Below the pieces are notes generated by a model that was given only the letters and a program-made list of their open reading frames with translations, did not search any database and was not told the DNA's origin. From contig JAHRHZ010000111.1 of NCBI GenBank assembly GCA_024137785.1, forward strand, positions 7,244,409-7,308,408: a stretch of DNA of 64,000 nucleotides, read 5' to 3'. Origin of the DNA: Ginglymostoma cirratum (lineage: Eukaryota). A program made the translations under genes and the position numbers. Shown piece by piece: positions 5,455 through 62,944 of the stretch (position 1 is its first letter; every line of letters begins with the position of its first letter).

Positions 5455-5616
5455 CTTGAAATCCCCAGAAAAAAGTGCCTTGATTAAGGTGTCCTGGTAA
5501 GTGGTTGAAAAAGCCCGTCCAGTTATCCAAATCGATGAAAACAAGATGTGTCATTGTGCGCAGTAGGTCCAAGTCAGGCAACTCTATGTCTTCTTCCTGG
5601 TTTATGGTTTCCTTTT
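5455..5616 (-). CDS. ZNF451: ZNF451 exon 11, start of C-terminal PIN-like domain
   Basis: ctaatag|aa...caag|gttagt, 162 bp, phase 1/1. Translates KETINQEEDIELPDLDLLRTMTHLVFIDLDNWTGFFNHLPGHLNQGTFFWGFQ(G). Confidence 0.93.
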
Positions 5617-7220
5617 CTATTAGTTAGGGATGGGGAAAAAGAAAAGACAGACTTTATTGTTGCAAAGAAATTGTTGCAAACTTGCAACCTCAGTAAGTCA
5701 TATGGATAAAGTATGAATATACTACATATCAAGAAGCACTTAGTTAAATTCAACAGGCCTTACTGGAACAATATTAGGCTGTTAACAACTCTATTATTGA
5801 TGGAAAAATTTTGTATTTTTATCTTCCTTCTCTTATCTGTCCATTTTCTCTCTCTCAGAATCCAACTTTCTGTTCCTCTTTTTATTCCTCTTTCTAGAAT
5901 TGATTTCAACTCTTCACTTTCATTCACATTTCTCAGTCCTAAAATGTCATTGGTTTAGGACACAGACCGATGGTCACATCTTTTTCTAAAGTCCATGATC
6001 AGCCTCCCTGCATCAATCACACTTCCACCAATCACAGAACGTTGAGTTAGTGAGAGTGGACAGTTGAACAGTGTAAAAGACTCCAGCAAAAACTGGAGTT
6101 TTTACCAGCTTTTACCAAGTGCAGGCAGAATGGGTTGTTTAAAGAAGATACTAAGGAATTTTAATCCAATCCACCCACTCAGTGAATTTAAAAAGTAGGT
6201 GACTGCCAAAGAGACATCTGACTCAACTATATACAGAAATGCAAAAGATAGGAGCAGGAGTACACCATTCTGCCTTTTGAGCCTGCTCTACCATTCAATA
6301 TGATCACTGCTGATCAGAACATTAAACTCAGAACTCAGTTCCTGCTTCTCCCCACACCCTTTGTTCACATTAGGGCTAGAACTACATTTAACTCCTCCTC
6401 AAAAAGAACCCGGGTCACTCCAGCCTCATTTTTTTGAATGGAGAGGTTAATGGTGGTTATATTAAAATTATTCGGTTTACAGGTATTGCACTATCAGATA
6501 AAATTAAATTATCCTGAACTTTATGGTAGCATTTTCCACACAATTAAAGTATCACCTCCTGCTTCAGACTGAACAATGAACAGAAATCAGCCAAACGTAC
6601 CATCCTCTTTCCACAGGCTACTTTGAAGAAACATTTTGATGTGGGCACACCTGCTGTGGATGCATTTTCAAGGCAGGTGGATAAACAAATTTAAGGAAGA
6701 GGGGTGGGAGGAGGTCAATGAGCAGCATACACACCAGCAATGACCAGATATGCCAAATGGCCTACTTTGTGCTGTACATTCTATGTAACCACCGTTAAGG
6801 AGGTGACAGTAAACTGTATTCCATCACTAGGACAGTCAAGTTCGGAATCTCAGCTCATGGTCAAATAGGATGTCAAGTTTGGAAAAAGTTTGGTTCCACC
6901 GGTGACAGTGGTAAGGGGGTGAAGACAGAATATAACAGCTATGGTCATACAGTTTCACAGCATGGAAAAAGGCCCTTCAACCCACTGCGTCTACACTGAT
7001 CATCAAGCACCTACCTATTTCAATCCCATTTCCAACACTTGGCCTGTAGCCTTTTATTCCATGGTTTTTCAAGTGATGATCTAAATATTTCTTCAATGTT
7101 GTGATGGTTCTCACCTTTACTGCCCTTACCGTGAAACATGAATGAGCCAGTTTAGTTAACCTGTGTAACAACAACAGGGGCCTATAAACTACCCTACTTC
7201 TTAAACCTTGTTAGACTAAA

Positions 7221-7370
7221 AGATAACAAGGCGTAGAGCTGGATGAACACAGCAGGCCAAGCAGCATCAGAGGAGCAGGAAGGCTGACGTTCCTGCTTGG
7301 CCTGCTGTGTTCATCCAGCTCTACACCTTGTTATCTCAGATTCTTCAGCATCTGCAGTTCCTACTATCTC
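7221..7370. mobile_element. Short foldback element (Penelope-like terminal repeat derivative) with 14-bp TSD
   Basis: Arms gataacaagg...caggccaagcag and ctgcttggcctg...ccttgttatc; TSD tagactaaaagata at 7212-7225 and 7371-7384. Confidence 0.75.
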
Positions 7371-7849
7371 TAGACTAAAAGATATACAACTGACAGAGTC
7401 TGAATTAGTCTGGAGCATTCAAAATACCTTCGGTGCATTTAACTTGCAACAGTTTGAAACCTAGACCAAACAAAAGATTTGGCTGCCACAGCGATCAGAC
7501 AAAAAGACTCATTACTAATGGATCTGCCAGCATGTGTGCAGGGATAAACAAACTTAATACTTCAGATCAGTAACCTTACATCAGTTCTAATGAAACATAA
7601 ACTCTTTTTTTTCTTTGTTCACAGATAATGTCTGACCTAAGTATTTCCAACATCTACAAGTGTTTTGTATTTGAATGTGGTCAGTATCAAGCCTATTTGG
7701 AGTAAATGTGTTCAGTCTTGGGGCCTTCACAGAAATGTATATCAGTAAGACTACCTTGGTCTGGGAAGGGATACAATGCAGATTAAGTAGACTACTACTA
7801 GAGTTATAAACGATTAAATTGAGAGGTTACATTACTTAGAAAACTAATA

Positions 7850-8060
7850 AATAGCTCAGTTGGCTGGACAGGTAGCTTGCAAAGCTGAGTGGCACTAACA
7901 GCATAGGTTCGGATGATGTTACCATGGAGAATTCTCCTTCTCAACCACTTCCCTTACCTGAGGCATGGTGACCCTCAGGTTAAACCACCAGCTGTCCCCT
8001 CTCTAATGTAGAGAGCAGTCCTACGGTCGAGTCGGACTATGACAACTTTACTTTAACCTT
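7850..8060 (+). mobile_element. tRNA-derived SINE of a further family
   Basis: tagctcagttgg A-box, ggttcg B-box-like motif, internal hairpin cctgaggcatggtgaccctcagg and actttactttaaccttt tail. Confidence 0.55.
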
Positions 8061-31090: not shown

Positions 31091-32869
31091 AATTGTAATA
31101 TCAACCTCACCATCAAGAAAGATGTTAAAAATCAAGTGGTCCAGTCATAAACTACAAGTTGTTTTTCCAAACATAAACCAAGGAAGAAAAGCCAGATGCA
31201 TAATCGGCAGAAGGAAATATACATCTCCCTGTAATTACTCGTCCAATATTATACAGCATATTAACTAATGCGTTAATTTGACAGCCAGGAAAAACACGAA
31301 AGCACTACATAAATCCAGATACTATTCAACAAATAAAAGGGCTTGACAAGGAAATTGCACTGAACTGCAGTCAGGAGGGAGAAGGTCAGCTTCTCCTTAA
31401 CAGGTGGTTCACATTCTAACAGAATATTCGATCATGTCACCTCACTAAATAATCTTCAAAATTAGTACAAGATTAGACTCGTGAATTTTTCAATCACGTT
31501 CTCCTGTAAAATACAAGCAATTTGTCAAAAAAAAAACAAAGCCTACCCAAAGTTTTACACATTTCACGATGCAGCTAAAAGCTACCCAAATTAACCAAGC
31601 AACAGCTGGAGTCAAATCATTAAGTTAACAAGAGCCTACTTCTAACATGGTATGATCATCATTCAGGGTCAAATACAGGGGTTCCATGAGATTTTGTTGC
31701 TAGCCACATTACAAAAACTCAAGTCAACGAACATGTCAATTGCCACTAGTGGTTATGCGACCAAGAGCTGAGGGAGGATATTTCAACAGAATGCACAATT
31801 GGCTGAAGTTGTAAATGTTATGGCCTTCAGTCAAGTATGTCTTACCAGCAGAGGTTCTCAAAATATTTTCCGTTAGAGAGCCCATTTCAAAAGACTGATA
31901 TTTAACTATTTCCCATCAGAATTAAACTGCAAAGTACTTACAAGACAATGTGCTGCATGTAAACAGTGCTTTAACAATGCTTTCAAAGAAAACATTGTAA
32001 CTGTTACCCTTTCACAAACAGAGCTGGTTTTGGCACAAAGGAGGCAATTAGTCTATGCCATCCCTCTGTACAGCAAACCAATAAGTCTTATTCTGCTGCT
32101 TTATCCCCATAAGCCTGCAAGTTTACTTCAGTGAGACTGTCTCAAGCTATATAGACAACAAAGAGGCAACTGCAGATACGCTAACATCCCCTGATGCATC
32201 AAATGGATTGCTTTTAAACAGGGTTAAAGACTCGAAACAGTGCAGAGCTGGAGGAACACAGCAGGTCAGGCAGCATCAGAGAAGTAAGAAAGTTGAGGTT
32301 TCGGGCCTAGACCCTTGAAGACTGCTTGTTTTTTGACATGCAGTCATCATCAGTTGATAGATTTTATCCAATACAAGCTGCTATTGGCCAAATGACTAAA
32401 ACAGCAATTGTGTTGTATTAACAGGCTCAAATCAAAGTATTTCAATTTAAAAAAGTTACTGCTTAATAAAGAATATTTTTCTTCAATTCTATTCCAGAGT
32501 ATTCACGTGACACAAGAATATATGCCTGTTCAAACCCAGTCTGGGTCCTTAGCACAATTTAATAATTCAAGGAATTTAGACTGCTGCAACACTTAGGAGG
32601 ATTTAAGCAAGTCAAACTGACAGCATTTCAGTAATTTCAAGAATCAAATTAAGAGATTAATACAAACAGAAAATGCTGGAAATGCTCAGCAGGACTAGTA
32701 CAGCAGTTACTCACTGAATGCACCCAAAAATCACAGCAAAAGGTGGCCTCCAACCTCCCCTCCCTCCTGAACCAGGCCGCTCATAAGCACAAAATGTTCA
32801 AGAACATCAGTAGAGACCTTAATCAGCTACGAGCACAGAAATAACATTGACAAAGTGACAGCACTTGAC

Positions 32870-41280: not shown

Positions 41281-42159
41281 CAACTGTCACTGCGGAAACT
41301 ATCAGAGAGTGATTATTGCATCCAAAGGTTCAGGTTGATGGGGCTGAAAGACATTCAACAATCCAGAGTTAGCAAAATCAATTGGCAGAGGACTGACTTC
41401 AATAGGGCAATAACAGAGCTGTGCAGGAATGCATGGAACAAGAGGTGGAAAACACTAACTGAACAATGGCTACCTTCATACAGCAGATGATTTCAGCACA
41501 GTTAAAAGCATAATCCTTCAAATGGGAAAGGTAGGATAAACAAATCCAGGGTTCCCTGGATCACAAAGGAGGTAGAAATTAATATTACAAAGAAAAATAT
41601 GCTTACGACATGTTGTAAGGCAGAAAAGAGAATAAAGAACCAAGAGCAATTCCGAAGTTTTAGAGAGGAAGGAAAAAGAAATTAGACAAACAAAGCAGTA
41701 GTATAAGAAATGACTACTAGTTTAGGAGAATCCTAAGTCTTCTACAGGCAAATAAATAGCAAAAAAATGGTTAAAGGATTTCTAGAACTGATTTAAGACC
41801 ACAAAGGGAACTTACACACAATGGCAGGAGGTATAGTTGTGGTGTTAAATGAATACTTTGCATCTGTTTTACTGAGAAAAAGGGGATGAACTCCAGGCCA
41901 TGTTGACAGAGGACAGAACTCTTGTTACTAAAAAGGTTCAAAATGAATACAAGAAAAGTCTTGGATAGACTATTAGCACTTAAAGTTGACAAGGCAGAGG
42001 GGCCCAATGAGAAACATCCAAGGATTTTAAAGAAAGCGAGAGTAGAAATTACAGGGATTCTGGTCATAATCTTTCAGTCTTCCCTGGAATCAAGACTGGA
42101 GAATTGTGAACATTACTGCATTGTTCAAGAAGGGCCTAAAGGATAGCAATTACAGACCA

Positions 42160-42291
42160 GAGATAGCAGGAACTGCAGATGCTGGAGAATCTGAGATAAC
42201 AAGGTGTAGAGCTGGATGAACACACCAGGCCAAGCAGCATCAGAGGAGCAGGAAGGCTGACGTTTTGGGCCTAGACCCTCTTTTCTGAAGA
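42160..42291. mobile_element. Same family, single arm, 16-bp TSD
   Basis: TSD agcaattacagaccag at 42145-42160 and 42292-42307. Confidence 0.75.
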
Positions 42292-42652: not shown

Positions 42653-43802
42653 CAAAGAACAAAGAAAATTACAGCACAGGAACAGGCCCTTTGGCCCTCC
42701 AAGCCTGTGCCGATCCAGATCCTCTATCTAAACCTATCACCTATTTTCCAAGGATCTGTATCCCTCTGCTCCCTACCCATTCACGTATCTGCCTAGATAC
42801 ATCTTAAATGACGCTATCGTGCTCGCCTCTACCACCTCCGCCGGCAACGCGTTAAAGGCACCCACCACCCTCTGCGTCTTTATGCAGGTTCCATGCATAA
42901 CTTTCCACGCATATCTCCCTTAAACTTTTCCCCTCTCACCTTGAAATCGTGACCCCTAATAACTGAGTCCCCCACTCTGGGAAAAAACTTCTTGCTATCC
43001 ACCTGGTCTATACCTCTCATGACTTTGTAGACCTCAGTCAGATCCCCCCTCAACCTCCATCTTTTTAATGTAAATAATCCTAATCTACTCAACCTGTCTT
43101 CATAGCTAGTACGCTCCATACCAAGCAACATCCTGGTGAACGTCCTTTGCACCCTCGCCAAAGCATCCACATCCTTTTGGTAAAGTGGCGACCAGAACTG
43201 TATGGAGTATTCCAAATGTGATCAAACCAAAGTCCTATACAACTGTAACATGACCTTCCAACTCTTGTACTCAATACCCTGTCCGATGAATGAAAGCAGG
43301 CTGTATGCCTTCTTGACCCCTCTATCGACCTGCGTTGCCACCTTCAGGGTACAATGGACCTGAACACCCAGATCTCTCTGTGCATCAATTTTCCCAGGGC
43401 TTTTCCATTTACCATATAATTCGCTCCTGAATTGGATCTTCCAAAATGCATCACCTTGCATTTGCCTGGATTGAACTCCATCTGTCATTTCTCTGCCCAA
43501 CTCTCCAATCTATCTATATTCTGCTGCATTCTCCGACAGTCCCCTTCACTATCTTCTACTCCACCAGTCTTAGTGTCATCTGCAAACTTGCTAATCAGAT
43601 CATTTGAACCTTCCTCCAGATCATTTATGTATATCACAAACAACTGTGGTCCCAACACGGATCCCTGTGGAACACCACTGGTCGCAGTTCTCCATTTTGA
43701 GAAACTCCCTTCCAGTACAACTCTCTGTATCTTGTTGCCCAGCCAATTCTCTATCCATCTAGCTAGTACACCCTGGACCCCGTGTGACTTCACTTTCTCC
43801 AT
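42653..43802 (-). mobile_element. Young 5'-truncated CR1 LINE
   Basis: SGVPQGSVLGPQLFVIYINDL, ISKFADDTKTGG, QFWSPLYQKD; tail aaagaacaaagaaaattacagc. Confidence 0.9.
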
Positions 43803-44194
43803 TGGAGGAAGATTTGTGGAGGTCCCGCGAGGTTGGTTTCAAGACCCTTCCAGTCCCCAATATTTATTAATAATCTAGATCTTCGTGTGTAGGAGACAAT
43901 TTCAACATTAGTAGATGACACAAAACTTGGAAAAACTGTAAACTGAAAGGAGGGTAGTGTGGAACTCCAAAAAGATACTGACAATTTCATGGAATGGGCA
44001 GAAACGTGGCAGATGGGTTTCAATGCAGAGAAGTGAGAGTAGATGTGCTTTAGTAGGAAGAACAGAGAAGGACAATATAAAATATAAGGTAAAATTCTAA
44101 ATAGGGTACAGGAGATGGACCTGGGTGTATTTGCATAGATTACTGAAGGTGGCAGTGCAGATGGAGACAGCAGTTAAAGCATAGTGTCCTCAGT

Positions 44195-44930: not shown

Positions 44931-46479
44931 TGAAATGATGATTATGTTACAAAAGAGAAGACTGAGGGTTAACTGTAGATTTAAAATAACAAAATATTTG
45001 GGTAGACACTGTTAGAGTTGTTTAACTATTAAACTAAAGAATTGAACTATTTGATCCTTTCACCCTGCTCCACGATTCAACAAGTCTATGGCTGATCAGC
45101 TATTTCAACCTCACCATCAGGCACTATTCCCATATCCACAAAAGTGTTTGATTGTGAACTTTACTGACCTCTGTCTCAAATATACCCGACCAGCGAGTAT
45201 CCACAGTTCTCCGGGGTGGAGACTTTCAAGGTTCACAACCCTTTGAGTGGGGTATTTTCTCCCCTTGGAAGCTTCCCTCAATGGCCAACACTTTGGTGGT
45301 CTCACCAAAGTCCTACATAAATATATAGTCCTAAAGTTGTTGTAATTATCAGATGTTTGGAAGTAGAAGCATTGGAATTAGAGACAAAGATCAAGTCAGA
45401 GGGAAAATTGCATGGATGCTGGCTTTAGGCATATCAGAAGGGTACTAATTTCGGTCTGTTATGTTGTCACAGCTGTAAACAAGTCTCTGAATAACTTCTG
45501 AAAACTTGCATCCTCGCTATTTCTTAATTCTGCCCAGAATCCATCCAGAAGACTTTTAAATTTAGAAATAAAACAAACCAATCTTGTCCAATTGCAAATA
45601 GGGACCAAATCATTAGTTTCTCACAAGCTCTCTCCAACTATCCATTATAAATTCATGTGAGAGGATTATCATTCAAGTTAGAGCCACGTTCAGATTCCCT
45701 CAACATCAAGCACAAAACAAAGTTTGCTTGACCATCACCCATCTGATGTTTGTTTGGAAACACCTGACTTACCTGCATCTTCAGAGGGAGTTTGTGGAGA
45801 GGCAACCAACTCCAATTTCTGGCAAGCTCTGAAAGCTCCAACACATGCACAAACAGTACAAGCTGCAGATACTCAATCCAGCATTCTGGGTTCTTCAGTG
45901 GCTGTTACACAAAAAAAAATAGTGTGCCTGCGCAGAGTGGTGGTGTGAAACTCTGACTACTGCACAAGTGGCAGTCGGGATAAAGCAAGCCAGGGAACTG
46001 GATGTTAGTTAGAAGCTGGGAGAAGGGATTTCAGACAGTTCTGTGTTTAGCAGGTTTCAGGCAGTAAGGATGCTCAAGAAGTCTTGGGAGTGGCAAACGT
46101 GGCAGAAGGTGGTTGGCGACAAAGTGAGTGCTCAGAAGCAGCTCTGGGTGCCTTTGAAAATTCAGTGCACTTGAGACCAGGGTGAAAGAAACCCAAAAGC
46201 AATATTTGCTTGATGTAGCTGAGAAATATTGAAGTTGAGAAAACCCTCGCAGCAGTGCACAGCTTAATTGCAATAGCTCACTGTGGAACGGCTGGAATTA
46301 TGCCCATGAGAAGGTACTAGTGTGCAGCCTCAGAAACCCAATGGAATAGAGAAAAAGCAACTGTACATCCAGGACATTCAAAGAGTATGGCGGAGCAGCA
46401 TTTGATAAATTTCCAAAGCTTGATCTTTGAAAATGAAGAATTGGAATCCCTTCAAAAACAGACAAATAACCCCAAATAA

Positions 46480-46656
46480 GATAACAAGGTGCAGAGTTGG
46501 GTGAACACAGCAGGCCAAGCAGCATCAGAGGAGCAGGAAAGCTGACGTTTCGGGCCTAGACCCGAAACGTCAGCTTTCCTGCTCGGCCTGCTGTGTTCAC
46601 CCAACTCTACACCTTGTTATCTCAGATTCTATAGCATCTGCAGTTCCTACTATCTC
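46480..46656. mobile_element. Same family, foldback copy
   Basis: Central near-palindrome gctgacgtttcgggcctagacccgaaacgtcagc; flanks ccaaata(a/t)gat on both sides. Confidence 0.75.
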
Positions 46657-48359
46657 CAAATATGATGCTGTGGGAAATGAACTTATTCCAGAATTGTAGA
46701 GTAGTTTTCACCCATTGAGAGGTACCAAAGATATGATGTTTACTGCGTCGCAAATTCAAGTGTAAGTATTTGCACGACAGGCTGTACATGATTTTTTTGA
46801 CCTCAAAAATCCTTTTGACACTTACCAATTTCAAAGGCTTAAAGGAGGCATCTTTCTCAAATTTAGTTGCCTTCAGAAAGTTGTCATTACTCTCTTTCCA
46901 TGATGGCACTAACAGAACTATTACAAATCTTATCTAAGCGAAAACATTAAAGTAAGGAAAGACAAGAAAGCATTGTCATAATGCCAGCTCTTCAATGTTC
47001 TTGTTGTAAGATTACACCTCAGCTGTGGGGATTTTCTACAGGACAGGAACTGTTCAATTTATGCAGTCTTCAATTCCAAAACCAAATAACTCCATCTCCA
47101 TCGTAAAGCAGCATTCAGGTGAGGTTAGTGTGTACATTCACTCAAAAACTAAGTTAAAGTCATTGCCTACTCTTTCTCTGAAGCATATGAGCAGATGGAT
47201 TCTTGTCACCCAGAATTCTAAAGTCGTCTTCCAACCAGTTGCCACAGCAGAACAGCTCTCCCCATTCATTTAGGAGCAGTGGAGAGAAACTGGAAAACGT
47301 AGACCATTTTCCATATCTCTGAAGCTGACTGTAGGGGGCATATTTTTAAGATGAGGGGAAAAACATTCTAAAAAGACATGAGGGGTAAATGTTTTGACAC
47401 GGAGGGTGGTTCATGTGTGGAATGAATTTCCTGACAAAGTGGTGGACGCAGGCACAGTTACAACATTTAAAAGGCACTTAGATAAGTACAAGAATAGGAA
47501 ATGTTTGGAGGGATATGGGCCAGGAGCAGGCAGATGGGATTAGTTTAGTTTGGGATGGACTGGTTGGACCGAAAAGTCTGTTTCTGCGCTGCATGATTGC
47601 ATGACTCTAAGATTTGGTGATCCTTTGTGTCCCAAACACTGGGGTGGGAGGAATTTACTCTCAAATTCATGGGATCTGATTAAGCACATCTGCTAGTTGA
47701 TGTGTTCTGCAGGGTTTTCAACTGCAGTTCCTCTTTAAACCATATTCCAAATGTTAGCACAGGTTATACATATACACGGCAGATTGTGTTAGCTGTCCAA
47801 CTTTGTCTAATAAAGCTCATTTCGTTTACTCAAAACCATGGACTCTTATCACTTTATTCTCTTAAATATCTAGAATCACAACCTTCTGCTGTAAAACAGA
47901 AAAGCATTCCTTGTCCTGAAGCAGTTGATAACAACTCTGTAATCTTGTCGGGAATCATGACACTGTAGTCATTTCCTCAGAGTTAACCATCTACAAAATG
48001 AATTGCAGAAACTTACCAAGGATCCACTGACAGCGCTGTCCAAACCCACAAACTCTACCATTCAGCACAATAAAGGCAACAGGGCTACACCACCCCCTGC
48101 AAGTTCCTCTTCATGTCGTACGCCATCCTGATTTGGAACCGTAACACCATTCTTTCACTGTCACTGGGTCAAAATCCTGTAACAGCCTCCCTCACATCAG
48201 AAATGCCTATACTGTTCAGCAGGGGCTCACCACCTTCTTGAGGATAACTTGGGATGAACAAATGTTAGCTTTCCCAGAGATACACATCCTTAATACAAAT
48301 ACCAAAAACAACAGACACTAGTTCCAAAACCTTGATGGCTGCATCTGTTAATGACTTAC

Positions 48360-48954: not shown

Positions 48955-50420
48955 TCATAAGACGTAGGAGCAAAAGGCAGCAATTTGGGCCACTGAGTCT
49001 GCGCCACCATTCAATGAGATCATGACTGATCTGATTATACTCAACTCCACTTTCCTGCCTTTTCCCCATAACCCTAGACTGCCCTCATGTTAATAATCTC
49101 CATCTCAGCAATGATAGCCCTGTGGAAAGAATTCCACAATTTAATTAGGCTGAGACAAGAAATTCTTCCTCAACTTTATCCTAACTGGACAACCCCTTAG
49201 TCTGAGATAATGCACTCTGGTCTTAGTCTCTCTAACAGGGGAAAATGACATTTCCGCATCTACCCTGTCAAGTCACTAAAAATCTTACATGCTTCAGTAA
49301 GGTCTACTCTTATTCTTTTAAATTCTAAAGAGAATAAGCACAACTTACCCAGTCTCTCCTCAAATCCCCATTTTTATACTCCATTATCTTTGAAATAAAG
49401 CCCAATATTCCACTTGCCTTCCCTACAATCTGCAGTCTTCCTCCATTTAAATAGTATTCAGCTCTTCTATTCTTCCTGCCAAGGTGCACAATCTCTCATT
49501 TTGCCATATTATACCCCATTCGCCAAATTCTAGCCCAATCCCTTACCCTGGCTATGTCCCTTGCCGACTGTTATCCTCACCACTTGCCTTCCAACCTACT
49601 TTTGTATCATCCACAAACTTGGCCATTGTACATTAATTTTCCTTACCTAAGTCACTAATATGTTGTAAATAATGACCCAGCATTGATCCCTGCAGCACTC
49701 ACTTGCTGCAGATTGCCATCCTGAAAATGGTCCCCTTATTACAACTCTGCTCTTTTTTAGTTATCCAATCCTCTACCAATTCTAATATACTATCTCTAGC
49801 ACCATTGGCTCTTATCTTATTTAGAAGCATAACGTGTGTTACCATCTCAAACTCTTTCAGAAAATCCAAATAGATCACATCCCCCATTTTCCCCTTATCT
49901 ATCCTCCTTTTTACCTTCTTAAATAATTGCAATAAATTTTTCAGGCATGGCTTCCTCTTCATGAAAGTACACTGACTCTGCTTAGTAACATTTTGCATTT
50001 CTAAGTGCTCTGCTACTACATCCTTTATAACAGACTAATATTTTCCCAATAATTGACAGTTAGTCAACTGGCCTGTAGTTACTTGCTTTTTGTCTCCTTC
50101 CCTTCTTAAGTAAAAGTGTGACACTGGCAGCTTTGCAATCCTCTGGGACTGTTTCACAATGTAAGGATTCTTAAAAAGGTTATAACTAGTGCATCCACCA
50201 TCTCTGTAACCACTTCCTTTCAAATCCCAGAATGCATTCTATTGAGTCCAGAGGACTTATCGGATTTCAGCCCCATTACTTTCCCTAGCACTTTTTCTGG
50301 AGTGATAGTTATTGTATTTATTTGCTCTCCTCCTTTTGCCCCTTAAAAATTGAGTAATTTTGGGATGCTACTGATGTCTTTTGCTGTGAAGACTGATGAA
50401 GTAATTATTCAACTCATTCT
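48955..50420 (-). mobile_element. Decayed CR1 ORF2 and 3' UTR
   Basis: DVIYLDFLKEF...LLNKIRANG motif. Confidence 0.75.
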
Positions 50421-51480: not shown

Positions 51481-52448
51481 CACCGGAACAGCTCTCTTCT
51501 ACCACAGTACTGGTGCTGGTGGTGCATGACATGAAAATAAGTACCATTGCCAAGGGAGACATGTTCCAGATGAGGCCGGTGTACATTTAAACATAACTCC
51601 AGATATAACACAGAATGCCAGTCTTCTCAAAAAGGATAACATTTCCATATTTGTCATGGAAGTCAGGACCAGGTTTAGGCTGAACTTTTCTTGCTACAAC
51701 TTGGTGAATGCTCCAACCGGATAGAGAGCAGGCTGCTGGTCAAAGGCATTATCTTCACCATTAAAAGCCAACCACACCTGATATACACAGCCAGTCTCTC
51801 ATCTGAGTACACACCAGGCCCTAGTCTGCTTAGCTTCTAAAAGCAAACAAGATTGGACATTTTCAGACTCTTGCGGTTGGATCAAGGGCCACCTAACTAG
51901 CTCATTCCCATGTTCTTTCCCTGTAGCCCTGTAATTTTTTTCTCCAAATACACAGTGAATTACTTTTGAACATTGGTTCAGTCGTATGGAAAATTCTGGA
52001 AAAAGGAGGCAAGCGCTCAGCAAAGGTTATTAAAGCTTCCAGAACAAGTAATAGGACAAGAAATTTTGATCCAAGTGCCCAGATGTTAGGAGTACTTTGC
52101 AGGGTTAACTGAGCTTGGTGAAAAGTCAATTGTGAGGCATCTTTATGAAGGTGTCTGTTTAAATTAAATTCACCACAGCGGCTCTGGATCATTTAGATAG
52201 TACCCGTGCTTTAATCATTTTGGAAATTTCAACATGGATATATTTACATGGGCTTAGAGAAAGAACCCTGAAGGGGTTGAATTGGGTACCTATGCAAAGA
52301 GCTAGTAGAGACACAATGGTTCAAATGGTGTCATTCTATGATTAGTAGCACACAGATAAGAGGGGCCAAGGAGCAATTATTTGAAAGGAACGGATGCACT
52401 TTTATCACGGAGATCTCTAAAGCTGGTAGCAACAAACTGACCACACTC

Positions 52449-53770
52449 ACCTAAGTCCCAGCCCTAACCCTAAACCTAATCCTAGCCCCAACCACAACCC
52501 AAGCCCGCAATCTACCTCTAACCCTAGACCTAACCATAACCCGAGCCCAAATCAGCATCTGAACCCTAACCCTAGCCATACCCCTAAACTATCCCTAACC
52601 ATAGCCCCCGCCCTAAAGCAACCCTAGCCCAAGGCCTAATCTTAATCTGAAGCCTAATGCTAACGCTAACCATAGCCCAAGACTTAAACTTAACCCTAAC
52701 ACTACTGACCTTAACCACAACCATAACCTTTGCCTCAAACCTCAGGAAAGTAATGGCCTCGTGGTATTATCAGTGGACTGTTAATCAGATAACATTCTGG
52801 GAACCCAGGTTCAAATCCAGCCATGGCAAATGACTGAATTTGAATTCAATAACATATCTGGAATTAAGAATCTAATGATGACCATGAACCCATTATTCAT
52901 TGTTGGGAAAAACGCATCTGGTTCACGAATCCTCTTGAGGGAAGGAAGCTGCCATGCTTACCTGGTCTGGCTTACATGTGAGTCCAGACCCACAGCAATG
53001 TGTCTGACTCTGAACTGCCCTGCGGGCAATTAGGGATGGGCAATAAATGCTGCCTAGCCAGCAATGCCCTCATTGTTAATCAATTTTTAAAACAACTTAA
53101 TTCTGGCCCAAGACCACAACTTAACTCTAACCCTAAGCCTAGCCCTTACCCTAAACCTAACCATAGCCGTAACCCAAAGCCTAACCTTAATGCTAATCCT
53201 AAACCCAGCCCAAACCTTAACCTGAAGAGTGACCCCAATCCCAGCCCAAACCCTAACCTGAACAGTGAATCCATCCTCAACCCTAATCCTAACCTTAATT
53301 TTAACTCTTGCCCTAAACCTAACCTCAACCCTAGACCGAGCCCTAACAGTAAACATAACGGTCAACTAAGTCCTAGCCCTTACCCTAAAGTTCAAGCTTG
53401 AAAATTAACCCTAACCAATTCCCAACCCTGACCTAAGGTCCTCCCCAGACCAAGGCCTAAACTTAACACTAAGTCTAGCTCTAACCTAAACCCTAACATG
53501 AGCCCAGCCCAAATCCTAACGCTAACCTAAACCCTAACAATAACCCAAGGCGTCACTGTATCTGTAACCCTATGTATAAGCCTAAACCTATCCCCATCCC
53601 CAGCCCCAGCCCTAACCCAATCATAACCCTAGACTGAATCCCAGCTCTAACACTAACCCTAACCCTCACTGAAGACCTAATCCTACCATTACTTTAACTT
53701 TTTGTCCCTGGCCCCGGCCCAAGCCCTAGTCGTGACCCCAGGCCCGGCCCGGCCCTGGCCCTGGCCCAGG
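52449..53770. repeat. Degenerate telomere-like (CCCTAA)n tract interrupted by a SINE
   Basis: Hexamer periodicity (ccctaa, cctaac, cccagc variants) over 52449-52742 and ~53095-53770. Confidence 0.85.
52743..53090 (+). mobile_element. tRNA-derived SINE with LINE-like 3' tail
   Basis: A-box-like tggcctcgtgg and B-box ggttcaaatcc; 3' end gggcaattagggatgggcaataaatgctg. Related copies on the minus strand at ~12550-12890 and ~58035-58470. Confidence 0.75.
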
Positions 53771-54346: not shown

Positions 54347-56237
54347 CTTTAATCACAAAAGAAAGTAATTATCCCATACACTAATTTCAAAACAAATTTC
54401 TTGCACTGATCATCATGGTCTCTGCACGAAACTTGTTCCCAGGCATTGCACTATGAAACCAAACTTTCCATCAACCAAATTGCAAAACAAATGTGCACAG
54501 TGAGATAGTGAAAAATAAAACCCAGTTTTCTGCTGTCATGGAGATATTACTGATGTTTGTATATTCTTGATTGACAAGGTGGTTATAGGTAATAGGGGAA
54601 AGTGAGTAAAGTGGAGTGGAGGCCACAATCCTATTAGGAATTGGAGCAGGTCTACGGGGCTGAATGGCCTCCTGCGGCACCAGTTCTCATGTCTCAAGAC
54701 TCAGTGCTCCCTACTAGGCTATTTCAGTAATATCGGTGATGGAGAGCAGCTGGGGTCTTTATCCTCTATGCACCATCAACTCTCCCAAGTATAAAAGAGA
54801 CAAAATTTTAAATAGTTTCATTTGGAGTAAATTGGCTTATTAATGGTCTTCATTGTACACTAAGTATATCATGGGATCAGTAAACAGTTGATCATCAGTT
54901 GAGAAACTTATATTCCCTCAGCCAACAGTGGAGCACTGTTAACTCGAGGAACAGTATGGTCATGGCAACACAAAGACCAAGACTTCTTTTTAAAATTGAT
55001 AATGAAAGAAGATAGACATTGGTAATAAATGTGGTAGAGGAAACAGATGGGGGGCAAGGACACAGATACAAACATTACTACATGTATCAACACATATTAA
55101 TGCTGTTAAAAAAGTGCAAAGAACACTCAGGCTAATTTTGAGGGATAGAATTGGAAAATGGAGAAGTTATGTTGCACATGAAAAGCATTAAACAATTTTC
55201 ATTAACACAGTGTCTTTAACATTTTAAACAAGTCAAAGATGTTTCATAGTATTATCAGTCAAAATCTGACACCATGTCACATATTAGAACGGGGGCGTAT
55301 GTATTAAGGAGTGTCAAAAAGGAGGAAAACAAGGTAAATAGGATCCAGGATTTTTAATCAGCTGAAGGCACAGTCAAAGAAAACAAAATCTGTGGCCAGG
55401 GAGTAAGACAGCATTCAAACTCTGAAGCATCAGTGCATGAGACCAAGTAAGAATGGCTCCTTTGTTTGGCATTTCAGGGCAATCTCCCCAGATGACAGCA
55501 CTGTGCCATTTTTGACAGGTGGTAACCAAGCTCAACACTTTCCACTTTCCAACAAGGCTGTAAAGTGCAGGAGAAAATGGCATAAGCGAAGCAGACTGAT
55601 TAGGAAAGACTACCCAATGACATGATTTACCATATGTATGTTCAACCCTCATCCATGCCATATCCTCAAAGCAGGAAAGTGGGGCTAGATTAGAAGGAAG
55701 GTCGGACTGCTTTAGTTTGGGATTATGTTCAGCATGGACTGGTTGGATCAAAGCATCTGGTTCCGTGCTGTATGACTCTATAACGTTATTAATTTTCCCT
55801 TTGCGTTCCAGGCATCCAAAAGGCATGGCTTCAAGATGAAAGCTAGATTAAAACCATGGATGAACTTGTATCTTTCCGGTGACCTAACACTTCAAGTCAT
55901 TTTGAAATGGTTGAGTTGTAAGTTTAGTACACTGGTTATGCACTCCTGTCACTGGACATGATTCCAATCTTTTCAAAGGTAATATCTGCTGGCTTAACAA
56001 ATCAACACTCCACAGAATCCAAAGTGAAAATGCAGCCAACAGTTCTGACTTGCTGACGTACGTAGGTGAAGTCTATTCAACCTGCCTCATGTAAAACCAA
56101 AGCTTCTATAATCAATCTTCTGGAATCCCTCGACATACTCCAGGTTTTGAGGGCAACAGGAATTTCAAAAGAATATCCATCACCTAAGTGACTGGTGGTC
56201 AACAGGACAGGGAGAAGAAACAAAATCAAGTGTAACA

Positions 56238-56357
56238 GAGATAGTAGGAACTGCAGATGTTGGAGAATCTGAGATAACAAGGTGCAGAGCTTGATGAACA
56301 CAGCAGGTCTGATGCTGCTTGGTCTGCTGTGTTCATCCAGCTCTACACCTTGTTATC
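56238..56357. mobile_element. Same family, foldback copy with 13-bp TSD
   Basis: TSD atcaagtgtaaca at 56225-56237 and 56355-56367. Confidence 0.75.
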
Positions 56358-57120
56358 AAGTGTAACAACCCATTTAGAAAAATAATTAATACAATTAATA
56401 GAAATCAAAACAAAAAACAAGTGAATGGGACACTCACTAGATCAAGTAGCTTCTCTGCCGTGTGTTAACTCAAACTTTTTACAATTATGCAGCTCTTTTT
56501 TCAGGTGTTTCCCTGGCTGGTCGATGCTCTAACTGAGAAAAATTACTCTTTGTATTGAGAACCCCAATTTAACTAAGAAACTATCCAACAACATGCTCTG
56601 AAAACCCTGTTCAAACTTTGATATTCCACAATATTCTAAAATACATCAATAACATTCTATAAAAACTTTAATTCGTCTCATCACCCAATGCTAATGGATC
56701 TTCTTAAACAAAAATTCCAGGGTCTGCATCCACATCTTCACAGACATTGACTAATTATTCTTTTAACCATACCCTGTATGCCAAGTTTCACTGAAATCCA
56801 ACCATGATCTCTGAGACAAATTGTTTAATCAACAAACTGACAAGAAAAAATATTATGTCGCCATTCAATCACATAAATTACAAAAATGCAACAAATAAAT
56901 CAGCCATCTCTGCAGGAAGAGAGGGGTTTTATGCATTATTGCCAAAATGCCAAGGTATAGGCTGATCAAATTGGACATGAAGTGCTGTGTCCAATTCTGG
57001 TCACTCACACACACAGTGAGATGTTCTACTCCCAGAAGGTAGTTTAGAGAAAACAAGGAGAATGATATCTAGCTCCAGTAGAAGACAGAAAGGACTGCAG
57101 ATGGAAGTCAGTGTCCATAT

Positions 57121-57275
57121 AATGTGGAGCTGGAGGTCAGCAGGTCAGACAGCATCTGAGGAGCAGGAAGGTCAAAGATTTGGGTCTGGGCCTGACGAAG
57201 GGTCCAAACCCAAAACATCAACTTTCCTGCTCCTCAGATGCTGTCTGACCTGCTGTGCTCCTCCAGCTCCACATT
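57121..57275. mobile_element. Related foldback element with hammerhead-like core
   Basis: About 65-bp inverted arms around ctgacga-agggtccaaaccc-aaaac. Confidence 0.7.
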
Positions 57276-57719
57276 TTTTCAAATCTCTAACATCACAGTC
57301 ATTTCTGCCAGCCTAAGTGTCCTAGTGCCTCAATCTATGTAAATATAATTTTACACATGTCAGAGATTCCTTTGGTTTGTTTGGATACAGCCAAACTCAA
57401 ATGTTTGTTTGTTTACTTGATACGATATTGCACAGAACTGAAATGCATTTGTGACAATGTATATATACGAAGAGATTGTTTTATGAAAAGCATACTTTTG
57501 AAATAAAAAACAGTTGCACTGCACCATTCCAGCCCACCAGCTTGTGCCACTCCCCAAAGGGTATTGTATCATACAGGGGAAGAGCTGCATTAACTCCTTT
57601 GTATGAATTTGAGAGTTCTCCTTAAGCATGTCATGAGGTTAACAGACCAGAGGGAAAAAGTTACGACTTTGTGGAACAACATATAATTTTGAAGTAGAGT
57701 ACAATATCAGAATACATAC

Positions 57720-57788
57720 GCTCACAAATATCACTTCATCTTCACTTTCACGTTTTTCTGCTGGCAACAACCCATCACTAGACGACAT
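57720..57788 (-). CDS. ZNF451: ZNF451 first resolved coding exon (exon 2; acceptor at 57804), SIM1
   Basis: Minus strand reads tttcccatgcag|gtctc...ATG TCG...GTG AGC|gtatgt and translates MSSSDGLLPAEKRESEDEVIFVS, matching the ZNF451 acidic SIM1 (human EDDIQFVS). The 16 nt before the ATG have no in-frame stop, so an upstream start in exon 1 cannot be excluded. Confidence 0.85.
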
Positions 57789-59519
57789 GATAGAAAACAG
57801 AGACCTGCATGGGAAAAGACCACAAAAAAATTTGGCTAGTTGTTGTCAAACACTGAGAAACAAATCAAAGAGCTATCTTGCAGGTTTGTCAAAAATCCTG
57901 TCTTCTATTTCTGGGCCAGCATTTCTAAAGGAAGCTTAAAAAGAGATATTGCCACTTGAAAATTGCTTCTCAGAGATGGCAAATTTGAATATGTTTGCCA
58001 AACTGTTCCTTGAAGCAACCTTTTAAAAAACTTATTCCATTAGATGTGGGGGTCACTGGCAAGACCAGTATTTGCTGTACATTCCTAAATGAGACAATGA
58101 TGTTCAGCAGTCTAGCTGAACCATTGTAGTCCATTTGTTATGACTTTTCTGGATTGGTTGGTACAATGTACAGTTGGCAAGCCACTTCAGAGGGCAGTTA
58201 AGAGTCCAGTACATTGCTGTGCATCTGGAATTACTTGTGGATCAGGCCAGTTAAATATGTCAAATTCCCTTACCTGAAAAGCATTAGTGAACCAGATGAA
58301 TGATTACAACGACTGGTCATCAATATTGAGACTAGCTTTAAATTCCACTACTAATTAACTAAATTTCTTAATCAAAATTAGTATATCTGACTAGCTGCCA
58401 TGATGGGACTTGAACCAGTGTCCTGAAAGCATTAGCCAAAGCCTTTGACTAATCCATCACCATCCCTACTCCATGTTCATGCACTATTCTCGGGTGCTGT
58501 GAAAAATCATCTCACTTACTTCCCATGTGTTCCCTACATCCTTTAGCTTTTTCTCTCTCAAACAGACCACAGGTTTGATCCTTTGCCAGAACATTCATAG
58601 GAAAACAAGATTACTCAGCCTGCTTTACCATTCAATAAGACTATGCATGGCTGACCTGCATTTTAATGCCAATGTCTATTCACCTTGATTCTGCAACTCT
58701 AATACTTTAAACGATAAAGAAAACTACCTTGGTTTAGCAATCTTTCATTGACTACCCCTCACCTCACCTCACATCAATAGTTTTCTTTGGCATGGAACTC
58801 CAAATTTCCATCACCTCTGTGTGAACTCCTTCTCAGTAATATCTCTGAATGGCCCACTAAACTCCTTTAATCATTTTAAATATATTAGAATTGATGATAA
58901 AAATTGTTATAGTATTAGCCAAATTTCCAATTTTTCTTTGAACATTTATTTATCAGTCATTTTGTTTTCTACACTTAAAGAAATACAAGCCAATGCAATC
59001 AGTCCCCAATATTTAACACCCCAAGCCCCTTTACAAGGCCCTTGGGTCTGAACGGCTGAAGGTACAACCACCAGTGATGAATGTGATGAATGTGAGGGAT
59101 GCACAAAAGGTACTAGCAAAGCTTTTGGAAGACTTGGAACAAATTACAGAAACTCAATGAGTCATTACTTACAAATAAGTTGTCTGATAAAAGTGCCTTA
59201 TAATGGTAAGACTATCACCTGCATTTTTAAAAGTCAAAATACTGAATCTTCCCGTCCCCTGCACCCGGTCTGCTTGCAATCCAGCATTCCTTCCCCAGTT
59301 CAGCTTTAAACTTGCACCAACCTCCAGCACAACACCAACTTCCTCCTTCACCAGCCCCCACAGCTTGCAAACTTGTTGGCACACTCTGGGACTCAGTGCC
59401 TTGCTTCAGCTACTCGAATGTCCACTCTTCTCAGCATTGTATTTAGACCACAGTTTACACAGTGGTTAATGAATGAATGAGAGTGACCAATAGGCAGAAT
59501 GGGAGAAAAGGAGCTCAGA

Positions 59520-60140
59520 CGTGATCACAACTAGCCTGTGCTCGCCAGCCCACTCCTCACATTGACGTTAACGCGCCAGGCCGCTCGAAGTACCAGTTCC
59601 ACACTGCGCTTGCGCCGCTGTCTTCCTCGAACAGAACGTGGTCACTTCCCCTGCGCCGCCGTCCCTTCCACACTGAACATGATGACTACGCCTCCGCTGC
59701 TGTCTCCCCTGCACACAGTCACTGAGCCTGCACCGCCGAATCTCACACACTGAACATAGTCACTGCGCCTACTCTGCCGTCTCCAATGCACACAGTCACT
59801 GAGCCTGCGCCACTGTCTCCCCCTGAACTTGGTCACTGCGCCTGCGCTACCTTGTTCAACGGAATCTGGTCACTACGCATGCGCCGCCGTATCCTGCGCC
59901 TGCGGCTCCAGCGCCGTCGTGCACTGCGAAATTATTTAACTCCTTGCTCACTGCGGTCTACCATCTAACCCTGTTGTGTTTCCCCCTTCCCCCGGTCACT
60001 GCGCCTGCGCCACTCTCTCCCGTGCTGCCGCACAGCGTCAGCCCGCACTGCTTCCCCACCCCTGCTCACTGCGCCTGCGCTGTTATCTCCACTGCAAACA
60101 GAGGGGGCGCCTGACTCACAATGTTTACGTCAGGTGTGTC
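59520..60140 (-). promoter_or_regulatory. ZNF451: CpG-rich promoter and probable exon 1 of ZNF451
   Basis: The only clearly CpG-dense patch in the window, about 1.8 kb upstream of exon 2. Contains repeated GCGCCTGCGC/CGCATGCGC (NRF1-like) motifs and an ETS-like GGAAGTG (minus strand, ~59644-59650). Candidate donors are aat|gtgagg (59560) and ctg|gtactt (59593). Confidence 0.75.
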
Positions 60141-62944
60141 CGCATCAATGCTAACCAGGGGTGGTGCTATTAGATATTTCACATATAAAAAAATTAACTC
60201 CCTTGCTATTAGAAATTTATGAAAGGACGTGGGGGGAAAAAAGATCTTGCATGTCAGTCCAGTTTAATAAATGAATTAATTTACTGAGATATTTCAATTT
60301 ACTTTCACAAGGAGAAGAGTATAGTACCAAAAGTATTTATTGTAAATGTCAGCCAAGGTTCAGTGGGTTGCAAAAACAGAAGTTGCTGGAAAAGCTGAAC
60401 AGGTCTGGCAGCATCTGTGAAGGAAAAAATCAGAGTTAACGTTTTGGGTCTGGTGACCCTTCCTCAGAATTTCCTCAGGCTTGCAGCCTGGCCTCTGAAG
60501 GAGGTACCTTCAATCCCCATTTCAGAGACTTGACTATTATATTTTGCTTGATTCTCCTGGTACAGTTGTGAGGGCATGTCATACTGTCACAAGCACTGAC
60601 AGCATGATGATGGACCTTTTTGATCTTGTGGCATCTATGCATCGACTGAAATAAGACATTGGGACAACTCACCATACTTTTAAATACTGCTGTGGGATAT
60701 TTTATGACCTCTGAAAGGGCAGACAACATTTCTGACAAGGCAGCATAGTCTTTGTGTGAAATTTTGCTTTGCTTCCTTCTTTATATGGTTAGAAATGTTT
60801 AAAGATGTTCCTAACATACTTTGGGATTTCCCAAAGAATCAAAGGGCACCATTTAAATGCATGTTCTTTCTTTTGCAAACTGCTAAACACGAGCAAAGAC
60901 TGCAGAATGTAAACATGGGCAATGGCTTTGTGCATTTTTCAGGTGATTAATTTTCCCGGCCAGAGACACATTGATACAGACTCATTTAAGACAAACACTG
61001 TACCATAGAAACACAGAGGTGCAGAGTAGATTTGTCAGAACACTCCCAGTGATGAGGAACTTCAATTTTCTGGATAGGCTAGAGAATGAGCATTGAAGGA
61101 TAAATGATAAATAGGGGATACTCAATATTAAGGGAGGTTTGAAAGAGTTGATGAGGAGAAACTGCTTCTGCTAATAGAGTCAGGGGGCAGACAGTGAAGA
61201 TTCATGATAACTGGTAAAATAACGAGAATGAGAGATGAGAATTACTTTTATGTAGTGAATCAGGATGATCTGAAATACAGGGCATGGAAGTGTTGTAGAT
61301 TCAATAAATTTCTAAAAATGAAATGGCCATGATGTGGAAAAGTAAAACAGTGCTGTGTTTGTGTGAAAGAACAGGATTTGCAGGCGCAAGTAGCCATATG
61401 AAATTATAACATAGTGACAATAACAAAGATCTGACCTCCTTTGCTGGCTCCTTTGTAGGAGTGGGAGAAAAACTCATCTCCCTTAATTTTTGTGGAGCTT
61501 GGCCCCTTTGGCTGAATATAGTTCAGGGTATCTCTAAGAATATGTGAACCATAAGGGATCCTCAGCCTGAAGCTGGGGAAACAAAAAGTAACAGCCACCA
61601 GCTGCTGGAATTCTTTCATTAACAGGCTTTGGAAAACAAAAAGAAATCTGTGTCCTCATTTTCAATACTTAGTTGCTATTTAGAGAACTCTTGTTCCCTT
61701 TGGGAAAGATGCCATTATACATTCAAAACTGAAGAAAACACTTCTTGGAAAATATGTGTTTGGATCTAAAGTGGTTTAACTGTTCACACCCTTTAAATTT
61801 GAGAAAAAGAATCAGAATGTGGCTTTCCCTTAGAATACTGTTTTAAAGAAGATGCAGAAACAAGAGACCAATGGATATATAAGCACAAATCTTTGAAGAT
61901 GGCTAGCCACGTCACGAAGGCTATTTTAAAAATTCCATAGGAGATACTTGACTTCAGAAAATAGAGGCATAGAGTACAAGAGCAAGGAAGTTAGCTAAAT
62001 CTTCAGAAAATATTGGTTAGGCCTCATCTGCAGTATTGTTTCCAATTCTGACACCTAAACTTCAGAAAGAATGTTCAGAAAGTGCAGAAGTGATTTACTA
62101 GAATGGTCACCTTCTATTCTTCTAGCATCTGACGTCAATAGCTCATCTTCTGCCATTTCCACTATGTCCAGCATTACGGCGGCAACAACCTTGCTCTCCA
62201 CTTTCGGAATTCCCGGATTTGTTCCCGAGGTGAGACCCTTGTTTAATCCTTTGCAATCTTCACGTCTCCTCCCTTTCCTGCAGCACAGGAAAAATATTTT
62301 CTAATCAACCTGTTCAGAGATGTTATTAACACATCACTGGAGCAGGCGGGGCTTAAACCCAGGTCTCCTAGCTGAGAGGTAGGGACACTATCACTGCTCC
62401 ACAAGAACCTTTATCCTACAGCACAGTTTCACTCAAGTGCAGAGCATGTAACACCCATCCTCAGAACTCCTCCGTTATGAACAGGCAAAGCCCCAAACCC
62501 TGCCTTAGAAGGGAAACGGTCATTTACTTTCACTTCTTTCAATTTAGTTACTTGCATTCATTGCAAATCTGTAGATCTCTTCTAGTCTAATTTGCACACT
62601 GAGTGATCTCTTTGCAGGACACCTCTATTTAGCTCACAGACGTAGACTTTCAATCATGAATTTCAATTCTTCACCTTTCTCTCCATCTCACCTCATTTCT
62701 TGCTTGTTTGAACAGAGACTGTAATATGCTCCTGGCAGAATCCAAAAAGAGCATTGGTGAACAGGTTGTTGGTGAGTAAATGGCAACTGATGACACTGTT
62801 GAAGACACCTTCTTTTGCTCATGATTGAGAGTGGACTGGTGACAATAATTACCTGGGTTGCATTTGTTAGCCGTTTTTGCTCACAGCTAGGTAATTTTCC
62901 CCTTTGATAGTTGGATGGCTGTAGCTGCACTAGAAGAAGTTCAC

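What the first reader, a model, noticed from the sequence alone, without database searches (positions are those of the whole stretch)
57121..57275. Minimal hammerhead ribozyme-like core inside an intronic palindrome
Seen: CTGACGA (57192-57198), then stem-loop GGGT-ccaa-ACCC, then AAAAC. Sister copies at 46561 and ~32298 (-) keep CCCGAAAC, so the family consensus reconstructs to CUGANGA-stem II-GAAAC. Known: Penelope-like elements and retrozymes carry minimal type I hammerheads that can cleave as dimers. Inference: this copy lost core G12 by CpG decay, but intact members could self-cleave. It sits about 450 bp into ZNF451 intron 2, where the pre-mRNA would form a long hairpin.
Basis: partly seen in the sequence, partly recalled or inferred. 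Interest (0 to 1): 0.7.

Follow-up and report, generated by a model that had tools for sequence, protein, structure and literature searches.

The report
Dead Penelope hammerhead in intron palindrome
This hairpin in a ZNF451 intron is two back-to-back end pieces of a Penelope-type jumping gene whose small hammerhead ribozyme motif is broken here and faces away from the gene, so it is most likely inert; its many sister copies likely mark where the element's RNA begins.

Summary
The motif is real but is not a working ribozyme here. It is the junction of two head-to-head 3′-end pieces (57083–57279) of an endonuclease-bearing Penelope-like retrotransposon. Genome-wide, 81,111 copies keep an intact minimal hammerhead core (reversed control 0), and two longer copies show repeat–RT/GIY-YIG ORF–repeat anatomy. 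This copy has G12→A, a broken dimer palindrome and no helix I. Its stem II is buried in the hairpin, and the core lies antisense to the ZNF451 pre-mRNA. The family gives one useful lead: 27 of 47 truncated copies start at the 5′ edge of helix I and only 2 at the cleavage site. That edge lies 31 nt after a TATA-like box, at an initiator-like A, and a G precedes it in 30 of 49 truncated copies. This suggests reverse transcription ran off uncleaved, capped RNA. No RNA test of this was obtained. The scan noted such palindromes (106 notes fit) and the start-site idea before, on other DNA.

The parts
57083..57191 (-). Left arm: inverted 3'-end piece of the Penelope-like repeat, from stem II to the long-tail end (about +98 after the cleavage site)
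   Evidence: nhmmer profile of 25 natural copies, model 100-216; 94 of 110 identical to L002 and 91 of 110 to L006
57192..57279 (+). Right arm: 3'-end piece from CUGACGA to the short end (about +60 after the cleavage site)
   Evidence: model 91-178; 82 of 88 identical to L002
57192..57198 (+). CUGACGA core half (C3-A9), intact
   Evidence: sequence
57200..57211 (+). Stem II GGGU/ACCC with 4-nt loop; not formed in the folded palindrome
   Evidence: pair probabilities 0.0; forcing stem II and an open core costs 17.4 kcal/mol
57212..57219 (+). Decayed GAAA-CG-UC half: G12->A (57212) and G16.2->A (57217), both at CpG sites; C17 at 57219
   Evidence: sequence against family columns; 3,301 genomic copies share this double change
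57083..57120 (-). One-sided tail extension, present on the left arm only
   Evidence: matches the 30-40 bp PLE tail described in PMC8557442 (passages)
57720..57804 (-). ZNF451-like exon with an ATG-initiated frame; its donor opens the intron that holds the palindrome
   Evidence: translation; spliced contigs; boundaries
46477..46662 (.). Sister head-to-head insertion; both arms start in stem II, no CUGANGA
32237..32316 (-). Sister single arm; keeps CCCGAAAC, lacks CUGANGA
7211..7378 (.). Sister head-to-head insertion with a 10-nt direct repeat at its flanks
56233..56360 (.). Sister head-to-head insertion without the core, direct repeat at its flanks
42155..42281 (-). Sister single arm with a 15-nt direct repeat at its flanks

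Best explanation
The feature is a decayed head-to-head pair of 3'-end (pseudo-LTR) pieces of a Penelope-like retrotransposon with reverse transcriptase and GIY-YIG domains, likely laid down in one insertion, and its hammerhead is predicted to be inactive. Shown: repeat identity, ORF linkage in longer copies, arm geometry, CpG-type decay, antisense orientation to ZNF451. Inferred mechanism: the element's endonuclease makes a staggered cut. Each DNA end primes reverse transcription at one of two internal sites about 70 and about 105 nt past the cleavage site, which gives the one-sided tail. Each cDNA runs through the uncleaved ribozyme to the capped RNA 5' end at the first base of helix I. The two cDNA ends are then trimmed and joined, here at a single shared C. 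The palindrome is therefore a likely by-product of insertion, not a selected RNA structure.
For: Family core 81,111 against 0 control. Upstream of the core, natural frames match GIY-YIG (E 2.7e-4, 21.6 bits, just under the 22.6 cut-off) and RVT_1 (E 9e-8); 134 longer relatives, most of the 120 listed carrying PF00078. L061 and L062 each carry two direct ribozyme repeats about 2.9 and 3.3 kb apart around the ORF remains. In 523,256 readable bases of 78 regions: 122 hits, 79 strong, 23 of 79 in head-to-head pairs; 3' ends fall at +65 to +79 (31 of 79) and +95 to +109 (40 of 79). 13 of 21 pairs have one long and one short arm, and 12 of 21 have a shared flanking word of 8 nt or more (my tally of its rows, no chance control). 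5' ends: 27 of 47 at -8..0 from C3 (p 3e-19 against uniform), 2 of 47 at the cleavage site. TATTTAT starts 31 nt before the helix-I A in 7 of 9 long copies checked. G precedes that A in 53 of 100 and 54 of 100 listed matches of two subfamilies (hand counts) against 26% expected, and in 30 of 49 truncated loci, while the next base out is G in 8 of 49. In 5 of 5 G cases with a detectable duplication the G lies outside it. G12A slows hammerheads from over 500-fold to about 10^6-fold (PMC2553840, passages).
Against: No exact target-site duplication flanks this copy: no shared word of 5 nt or more, only a gapped 17-column resemblance, so a single event is inferred from sisters. Neither arm of this copy keeps the +1 A or the extra G. 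Three of 5 long copies of this copy's subfamily also have G at that position, so part of the G excess there may be templated; the other subfamily had 0 long copies among 30 and G in 14 of 24 truncated ones. Only 9 of the 60 loci gave any duplication of 8 nt or more (loci with N beside the junction were skipped). No RNA 5' ends were measured: raw reads gave no pile-up of starts or ends and no coverage of the exon. The two-ended priming step is inference.
Confidence: 0.88

Rival explanations
1. This copy is, or recently was, a functional intronic ribozyme or a selected hairpin that regulates ZNF451 pre-mRNA.
For: The pre-mRNA strand can form a long hairpin (-130.5 kcal/mol for 57083-57290) 444 nt from a splice donor; such duplexes could be edited by ADAR (recalled).
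Against: The core is antisense to the gene; G12A, G16.2A and loss of helix I; stem II is sequestered. Decay sits at CpG sites as in neutral copies. Similar hairpins are common: 4 in this window and 23 of 79 strong sampled hits.
Confidence: 0.03
2. The palindromes are a non-autonomous mini-element (MITE-, SINE- or retrozyme-like) that is copied as a unit.
For: High copy number, similar size, and flanking duplications around whole palindromes.
Against: Junctions differ among copies (arm starts from -26 to +74; four different junctions in this window). The same ends continue into ORF-bearing copies. No tandem ribozyme units, which define non-LTR retrozymes (bioRxiv 10.64898/2026.07.22.740005, part 1 and passages).
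Confidence: 0.05
3. Same element, but the shared 5' end arises because the enzyme stalls at the folded ribozyme or the endonuclease recuts the cDNA at ATT, not because the RNA starts there.
For: The anole enzyme prefers to cut at ATT (PMC11167929, part 2), and ATTT precedes CUGA in the largest subfamily; the edge coincides with helix I.
Against: Truncation at the same position occurs in the subfamily that has AGTC there (25 of 30 loci truncated in a search that excluded the templated C). Neither stalling nor recutting predicts one extra G or the -31 TATA-like box.
Confidence: 0.25
4. Same element, but the inverted arm forms by fold-back self-priming on an antisense template, as proposed for rotifer Penelope elements.
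For: Head-to-head palindromic junctions are interpreted that way in PMC3846280 (passages); some junctions here are A/T palindromes.
Against: Both arms often end near the same sense-strand start and have different tail lengths, and the extra G points to a capped sense template.
Confidence: 0.2

Closest known systems
Minimal type I hammerheads in pseudo-LTRs of metazoan Penelope-like elements (Cervera and De la Pena 2014, PMC4209133; parts 1-2 of 4 read)
   Same: CUGANGA, an extra base before stem II, G10.1-C11.1, palindromic 15.2-16.2, short helix I; thousands of dispersed single motifs; dual motifs on opposite strands
   Different: This copy is mutated at G12 and G16.2 and lacks helix I. Stem II is 4-5 bp rather than 7-8. 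Copy number is far higher (81,111 exact cores against about 4,000-9,000 in coelacanth and frog). The parts read do not mention cartilaginous fish.
EN+ PLE insertion unit with inverted 5'-truncated copy, 30-40 bp one-sided tail and TSD (PMC8557442, PMC3846280; passages)
   Same: Head-to-head arms, tail on one arm, flanking duplications in sisters, C-terminal GIY-YIG; a C-X4-C-X2-C linker as in Neptune/Nematis types
   Different: Here the unit is reduced to two ribozyme-sized arms with no ORF; this copy's own TSD is not recognisable; no tree was built for the clade
Poseidon element of green anole, PAc (PMC11167929; parts 1-2 of 4 read)
   Same: Two internal reverse-transcription starts about 110 nt past the ribozyme core that define the tail; uncleaved RNA as the main template
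   Different: The passages read report no fixed 5' stop at the ribozyme edge; different PLE clade by linker motif
Non-LTR retrozymes (bioRxiv 10.64898/2026.07.22.740005; part 1 of 5 and passages)
   Same: Type I hammerhead of PLE origin; reported from one chondrichthyan genome
   Different: Retrozymes are tandem arrays with an intact ribozyme in each unit; this is a single inverted, decayed pair
Full-length LINE-1 insertions with an extra G, and twin priming (PMC11702581; passages)
   Same: Extra G at the 5' junction attributed to the mRNA cap; second priming from the other DNA end gives inversions
   Different: In LINE-1 the G marks full-length copies. Here it marks the shortest copies, which would follow if reverse transcription starts near the RNA 5' end.

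Membership tests
EN+ Penelope-like element (family) | Single ORF with RT followed by C-terminal GIY-YIG endonuclease | tested here: met
   RVT_1 in L045 (E 9e-8); GIY-YIG at residues 288-365 of the 402-aa frame in L051 (E 2.7e-4, just under cut-off); L007 and L004 fragments gave no Pfam hit; 134 relatives
EN+ Penelope-like element (family) | Direct pseudo-LTR repeats with hammerhead flanking the ORF | tested here: met
   two direct repeats in both extended loci L061 and L062
EN+ Penelope-like element (family) | Inverted 5'-truncated copy and one-sided 30-40 bp tail | tested here: met
   13 of 21 pairs long plus short; bimodal 3' ends; this copy +98 and +60
EN+ Penelope-like element (this copy) | Target-site duplication | tested here: inconclusive
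   no exact shared word of 5 nt or more; weak gapped resemblance only
Neptune/Nematis clade | CX2-5CxxC linker between RT and EN; placement in RT tree | tested here: inconclusive
   linker motif present in L051, L039, L055; no tree against named references was built
Minimal type I hammerhead (family) | Conserved CUGANGA / GAAA-N-N-UH core with stem II | tested here: met
   81,111 against 0; relaxed descriptor 40 against 1 in reversed control over 523 kb; 25 of 58 sampled copies fully intact
Minimal type I hammerhead (family) | Helix I and stem II supported by covariation | tested here: inconclusive
   Helix I switches AUUU/AAGU to AGUC/GACU between subfamilies: 42 of 95 GTC-upstream cores have GAC downstream, against 102 GAC cores among 81,111. 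This may be a single event; about 21 of 100 GAC cores have TTT upstream (hand count), and a large subfamily has a U-C mismatch. Stem II varies mainly on one side; 2 of 40 descriptor hits have a different 7-bp stem. No Rfam hammerhead hit in the window at E up to 5.
Minimal type I hammerhead (this copy) | G12 general base, palindromic 15.2-16.2, helix I | tested here: not met
   A at 57212 and 57217; 57191 C faces 57220 A; 5' strand replaced by the inverted arm
Minimal type I hammerhead (family) | Self-cleavage as dimer or with protein help | not testable with these tools
   needs in vitro assay; only 2 of 47 genomic 5' ends fall at the cleavage site
Non-LTR retrozyme | Tandem units each with an intact hammerhead; circular RNA | tested here: not met
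   inverted pair with one broken core and no tandem units; circular RNA not tested

The most novel reading that the evidence does not exclude
In this Penelope family the transcript starts at the first base of the hammerhead's helix I (TATA-like box at -31, initiator-like A). Most short copies and palindromes are strong-stop-like run-off products of capped, uncleaved sense RNA and carry a cap-derived G. The ribozyme would then act as a decapping switch that removes the first 32 nt, and palindromes would form by priming from both cut ends rather than by antisense self-priming.
Probability: 0.55. Interest if true: 0.58.

Novelty: new member of a known kind. Interest (0 to 1): 0.3.

Why it matters
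The copy itself matters little: it is one of some hundreds of thousands of similar remnants (233 profile hits per Mb in the sample). The family matters because the role of hammerheads in Penelope-like elements and the origin of their inverted ends are stated as open in PMC8557442 and PMC11167929. Tens of thousands of junctions here give a direct genomic test of where the RNA starts, whether templates are cleaved, and how the second arm is primed. The extra-G and TATA/initiator spacing were not found in six answered literature searches. Those searches cover open-access papers only, exclude Repbase and Dfam entries, and none was built around both Penelope and the cap G.

Tried and rejected
Rfam scan of the window: no hammerhead family at E up to 5, only microRNA-like hairpin hits below gathering score; uninformative, since minimal motifs are not expected to score. 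Relaxed descriptor in the window: 0 hits. Enrichment of genomic 5' ends at the cleavage site, which would have shown in vivo cleavage: 2 of 47, rejected. The CUGAGGA..GAAA string on the pre-mRNA strand (57237-57223) has only 4 nt between the halves and cannot form stem II. RNA reads on 56700-58000: run X23 laid 90 reads, 89 only partly fitting, in both orientations and none on the exon, so they likely come from other copies; X24 laid none; no start or end pile-ups. Runs X1 and X19 are contigs of unrecorded library type and were used only for the exon joins. RNA 5' ends and cleavage products of young copies remain untested. Exact TSD search at this copy failed. Dropped rows: 23 of 78 sampled regions were fully N; 43 of 122 hits under 60 bits and 15 of 79 strong hits next to N or a region edge were left out of the 5'-end count; 17 of 64 reached the model start; 6 N-adjacent and 5 long copies of 60 were left out of the G count. 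PMC5680766 and PMC11371274 (passages) added nothing. No supplements were read; the alignments and motif lists in the supplements of PMC4209133 and of the bioRxiv preprint could already include a shark motif.

Full report
Observation. The letters are as reported: CTGACGA at 57192-57198, an extra A, GGGT-ccaa-ACCC at 57200-57211, and AAAAC-ATC at 57212-57219 on the + strand. They sit at the centre of an inverted repeat with 61-nt arms, 85% complementary, that folds at -124.9 kcal/mol, z -16.1. Rfam gives no hammerhead hit at E up to 5. The window lies in a 4.36-Gb genome. The label 'shark' comes from earlier scan notes and my recall of such repeats, not from a test of mine.

Host gene. Minus-strand frames match ZNF451 zinc-finger and PIN_11 models. 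Contigs of two public runs join exon 57804-57720 to exons at 59322 and about 54349, so the palindrome starts 444 nt into that intron. The pre-mRNA is the minus strand, so the hammerhead-like core is antisense to it. The minus strand can form the hairpin (-130.5 kcal/mol) but holds no usable core.

The family. A search with the right arm returned 44 matches from 40 scored of 894 candidates. A tight pattern for the intact core has 40,379 + 40,732 matches and 0 reversed. Several loci continue upstream into a frame with a GIY-YIG-like end. Natural frames match RVT_1 (E 9e-8) and GIY-YIG (E 2.7e-4, just under cut-off); two older fragments gave no Pfam hit. The 402-aa frame has 134 longer relatives. 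Both extended loci, L061 and L062, carry two direct ribozyme repeats about 3 kb apart around the ORF remains. This is the pLTR-ORF-pLTR anatomy with minimal hammerheads described in PMC4209133 (parts 1-2 read) and PMC8557442 (passages). A C-X4-C-X2-C linker points to the Neptune/Nematis type; no tree was built.

Is the motif a hammerhead? At family level, yes by sequence. A relaxed descriptor finds 40 motifs in 523,256 readable bases of 78 regions that I picked at round coordinates, against 1 in the reversed control. 25 of 58 copies covering the core are fully intact. Covariation support is modest. Helix I changes from AUUU/AAGU to AGUC/GACU between subfamilies: 42 of 95 cores with GTC upstream have GAC downstream, against 102 GAC cores in 81,111. 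This may be one event, about 21 of 100 GAC cores have TTT upstream (hand count), and one large subfamily has a mismatch in helix I.

This copy. It most resembles the AGUC/GACU subfamily (82 of 88 identical to L002). It has G12->A and G16.2->A, both at CpG sites. In the sample the four CpG positions changed in 8-12 of 58 copies and other core positions except N7 in 0-3; 3,301 copies share this double change. G12A slows hammerheads from over 500-fold to about 10^6-fold (PMC2553840, passages). The 5' strand of helix I is replaced by the inverted arm. Even on the + strand, stem II has pairing probability 0.0 and forcing it costs 17.4 kcal/mol.

How the palindrome likely arose. The element spans 57083-57279: a left arm reaching +98 past the cleavage site and a right arm reaching +60. 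In the sample, 3' ends are bimodal: 31 of 79 at +65 to +79 and 40 of 79 at +95 to +109. 13 of 21 head-to-head pairs combine a long and a short arm (3 of the 13 have N between the arms), and 12 of 21 have a shared flanking word of 8 nt or more (my tally, no chance control). This matches the known inverted copy with a one-sided tail (PMC8557442; PMC3846280, passages) and the two internal priming sites shown for the anole element (PMC11167929, parts 1-2). This copy's own duplication is not recognisable. Priming from both ends of a staggered cut is my inference.

A lead from the family. Of 64 strong hits not next to N, 47 are truncated within the modelled range. 27 of the 47 start at -8..0 from C3 (p 3e-19 against uniform) and 2 at the cleavage site; 3 of 11 single copies have a 10-15 nt duplication abutting that edge. 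In 7 of 9 long copies TATTTAT begins 31 nt before the A that starts helix I, inside an initiator-like YYANWYY (the consensus is recalled). Where the templated C before that A is absent, the base is G in 53 of 100 and 54 of 100 listed matches of the two subfamilies (hand counts; 26% expected). It is G in 30 of 49 truncated loci, while the next base out is G in 8 of 49. In 5 of 5 G cases with a detectable duplication the G is outside it. An extra G is attributed to the cap in full-length LINE-1 insertions (PMC11702581, passages). Against this reading: 3 of 5 long copies of the AGUC subfamily also have that G; only 9 of 60 loci showed a duplication; this copy keeps neither the +1 A nor the G; Drosophila Penelope starts upstream of an intron with a TATA-less internal promoter (PMC2377424, passages); and no RNA ends were measured (one search gave none).

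Earlier notes. 106 notes in this genome fit 'hammerhead Penelope palindrome' and the 8 shown reach the same reading. Two of them, and one from another genome, already mention the stop at the ribozyme edge or a transcription start. They are unchecked AI notes and not independent support; the counts above are my own.

Verdict. New member of a known kind: a dead ribozyme remnant in an ordinary Penelope fold-back insertion. Interest 0.3. The run-off-from-capped-RNA reading has probability about 0.55 and would merit about 0.58.

Noticed in passing
window 16866-17013 and 60375-60470 (-): A second, related hammerhead-bearing repeat family with a longer stem II loop and a GAAAC-GUUA end; also 6 of 40 descriptor hits in the sample
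   Followed up: partly
L068 and L114 (descriptor hits): A third motif with the same core and a different 7-bp stem II; the L114 copy has a 5-bp helix I
   Followed up: no
L073 near 5274, L190 and L225 near 1500: Between the target duplication and the element start lies a short extra copy of the element's first bases, as if the enzyme re-primed after running off
   Followed up: partly
L122, L126, L129; also L176/L177: Head-to-head pairs of young arms are separated by about 400 N; near-perfect palindromes may break the assembly, so young palindromes may be under-counted
   Followed up: no
window 57192-57313 and family: In copies with CUGAUGA an ATG inside the core opens a frame that runs through the tail; in the anole element the ORF starts at stem II. 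Whether it is the true start here was not tested
   Followed up: no
window 51766-51881 (-): 5S rRNA-like match, 37.9 bits against a gathering score of 38; probably a pseudogene or SINE head
   Followed up: no
window 59550-60110: CpG-rich stretch with repeated CACTGCGCCTGCGC-like words upstream of the exon ending at 59322; likely the ZNF451 promoter
   Followed up: no
window 52982-53398: Low-complexity repeat of about 6-nt units giving a Pro-Asn-rich frame
   Followed up: no
window 13855-14268, 42883-43838, 34878-35306, 49702-50034 (all -): Fragments that look like CR1/L2-type LINE reverse transcriptase (family label recalled)
   Followed up: no
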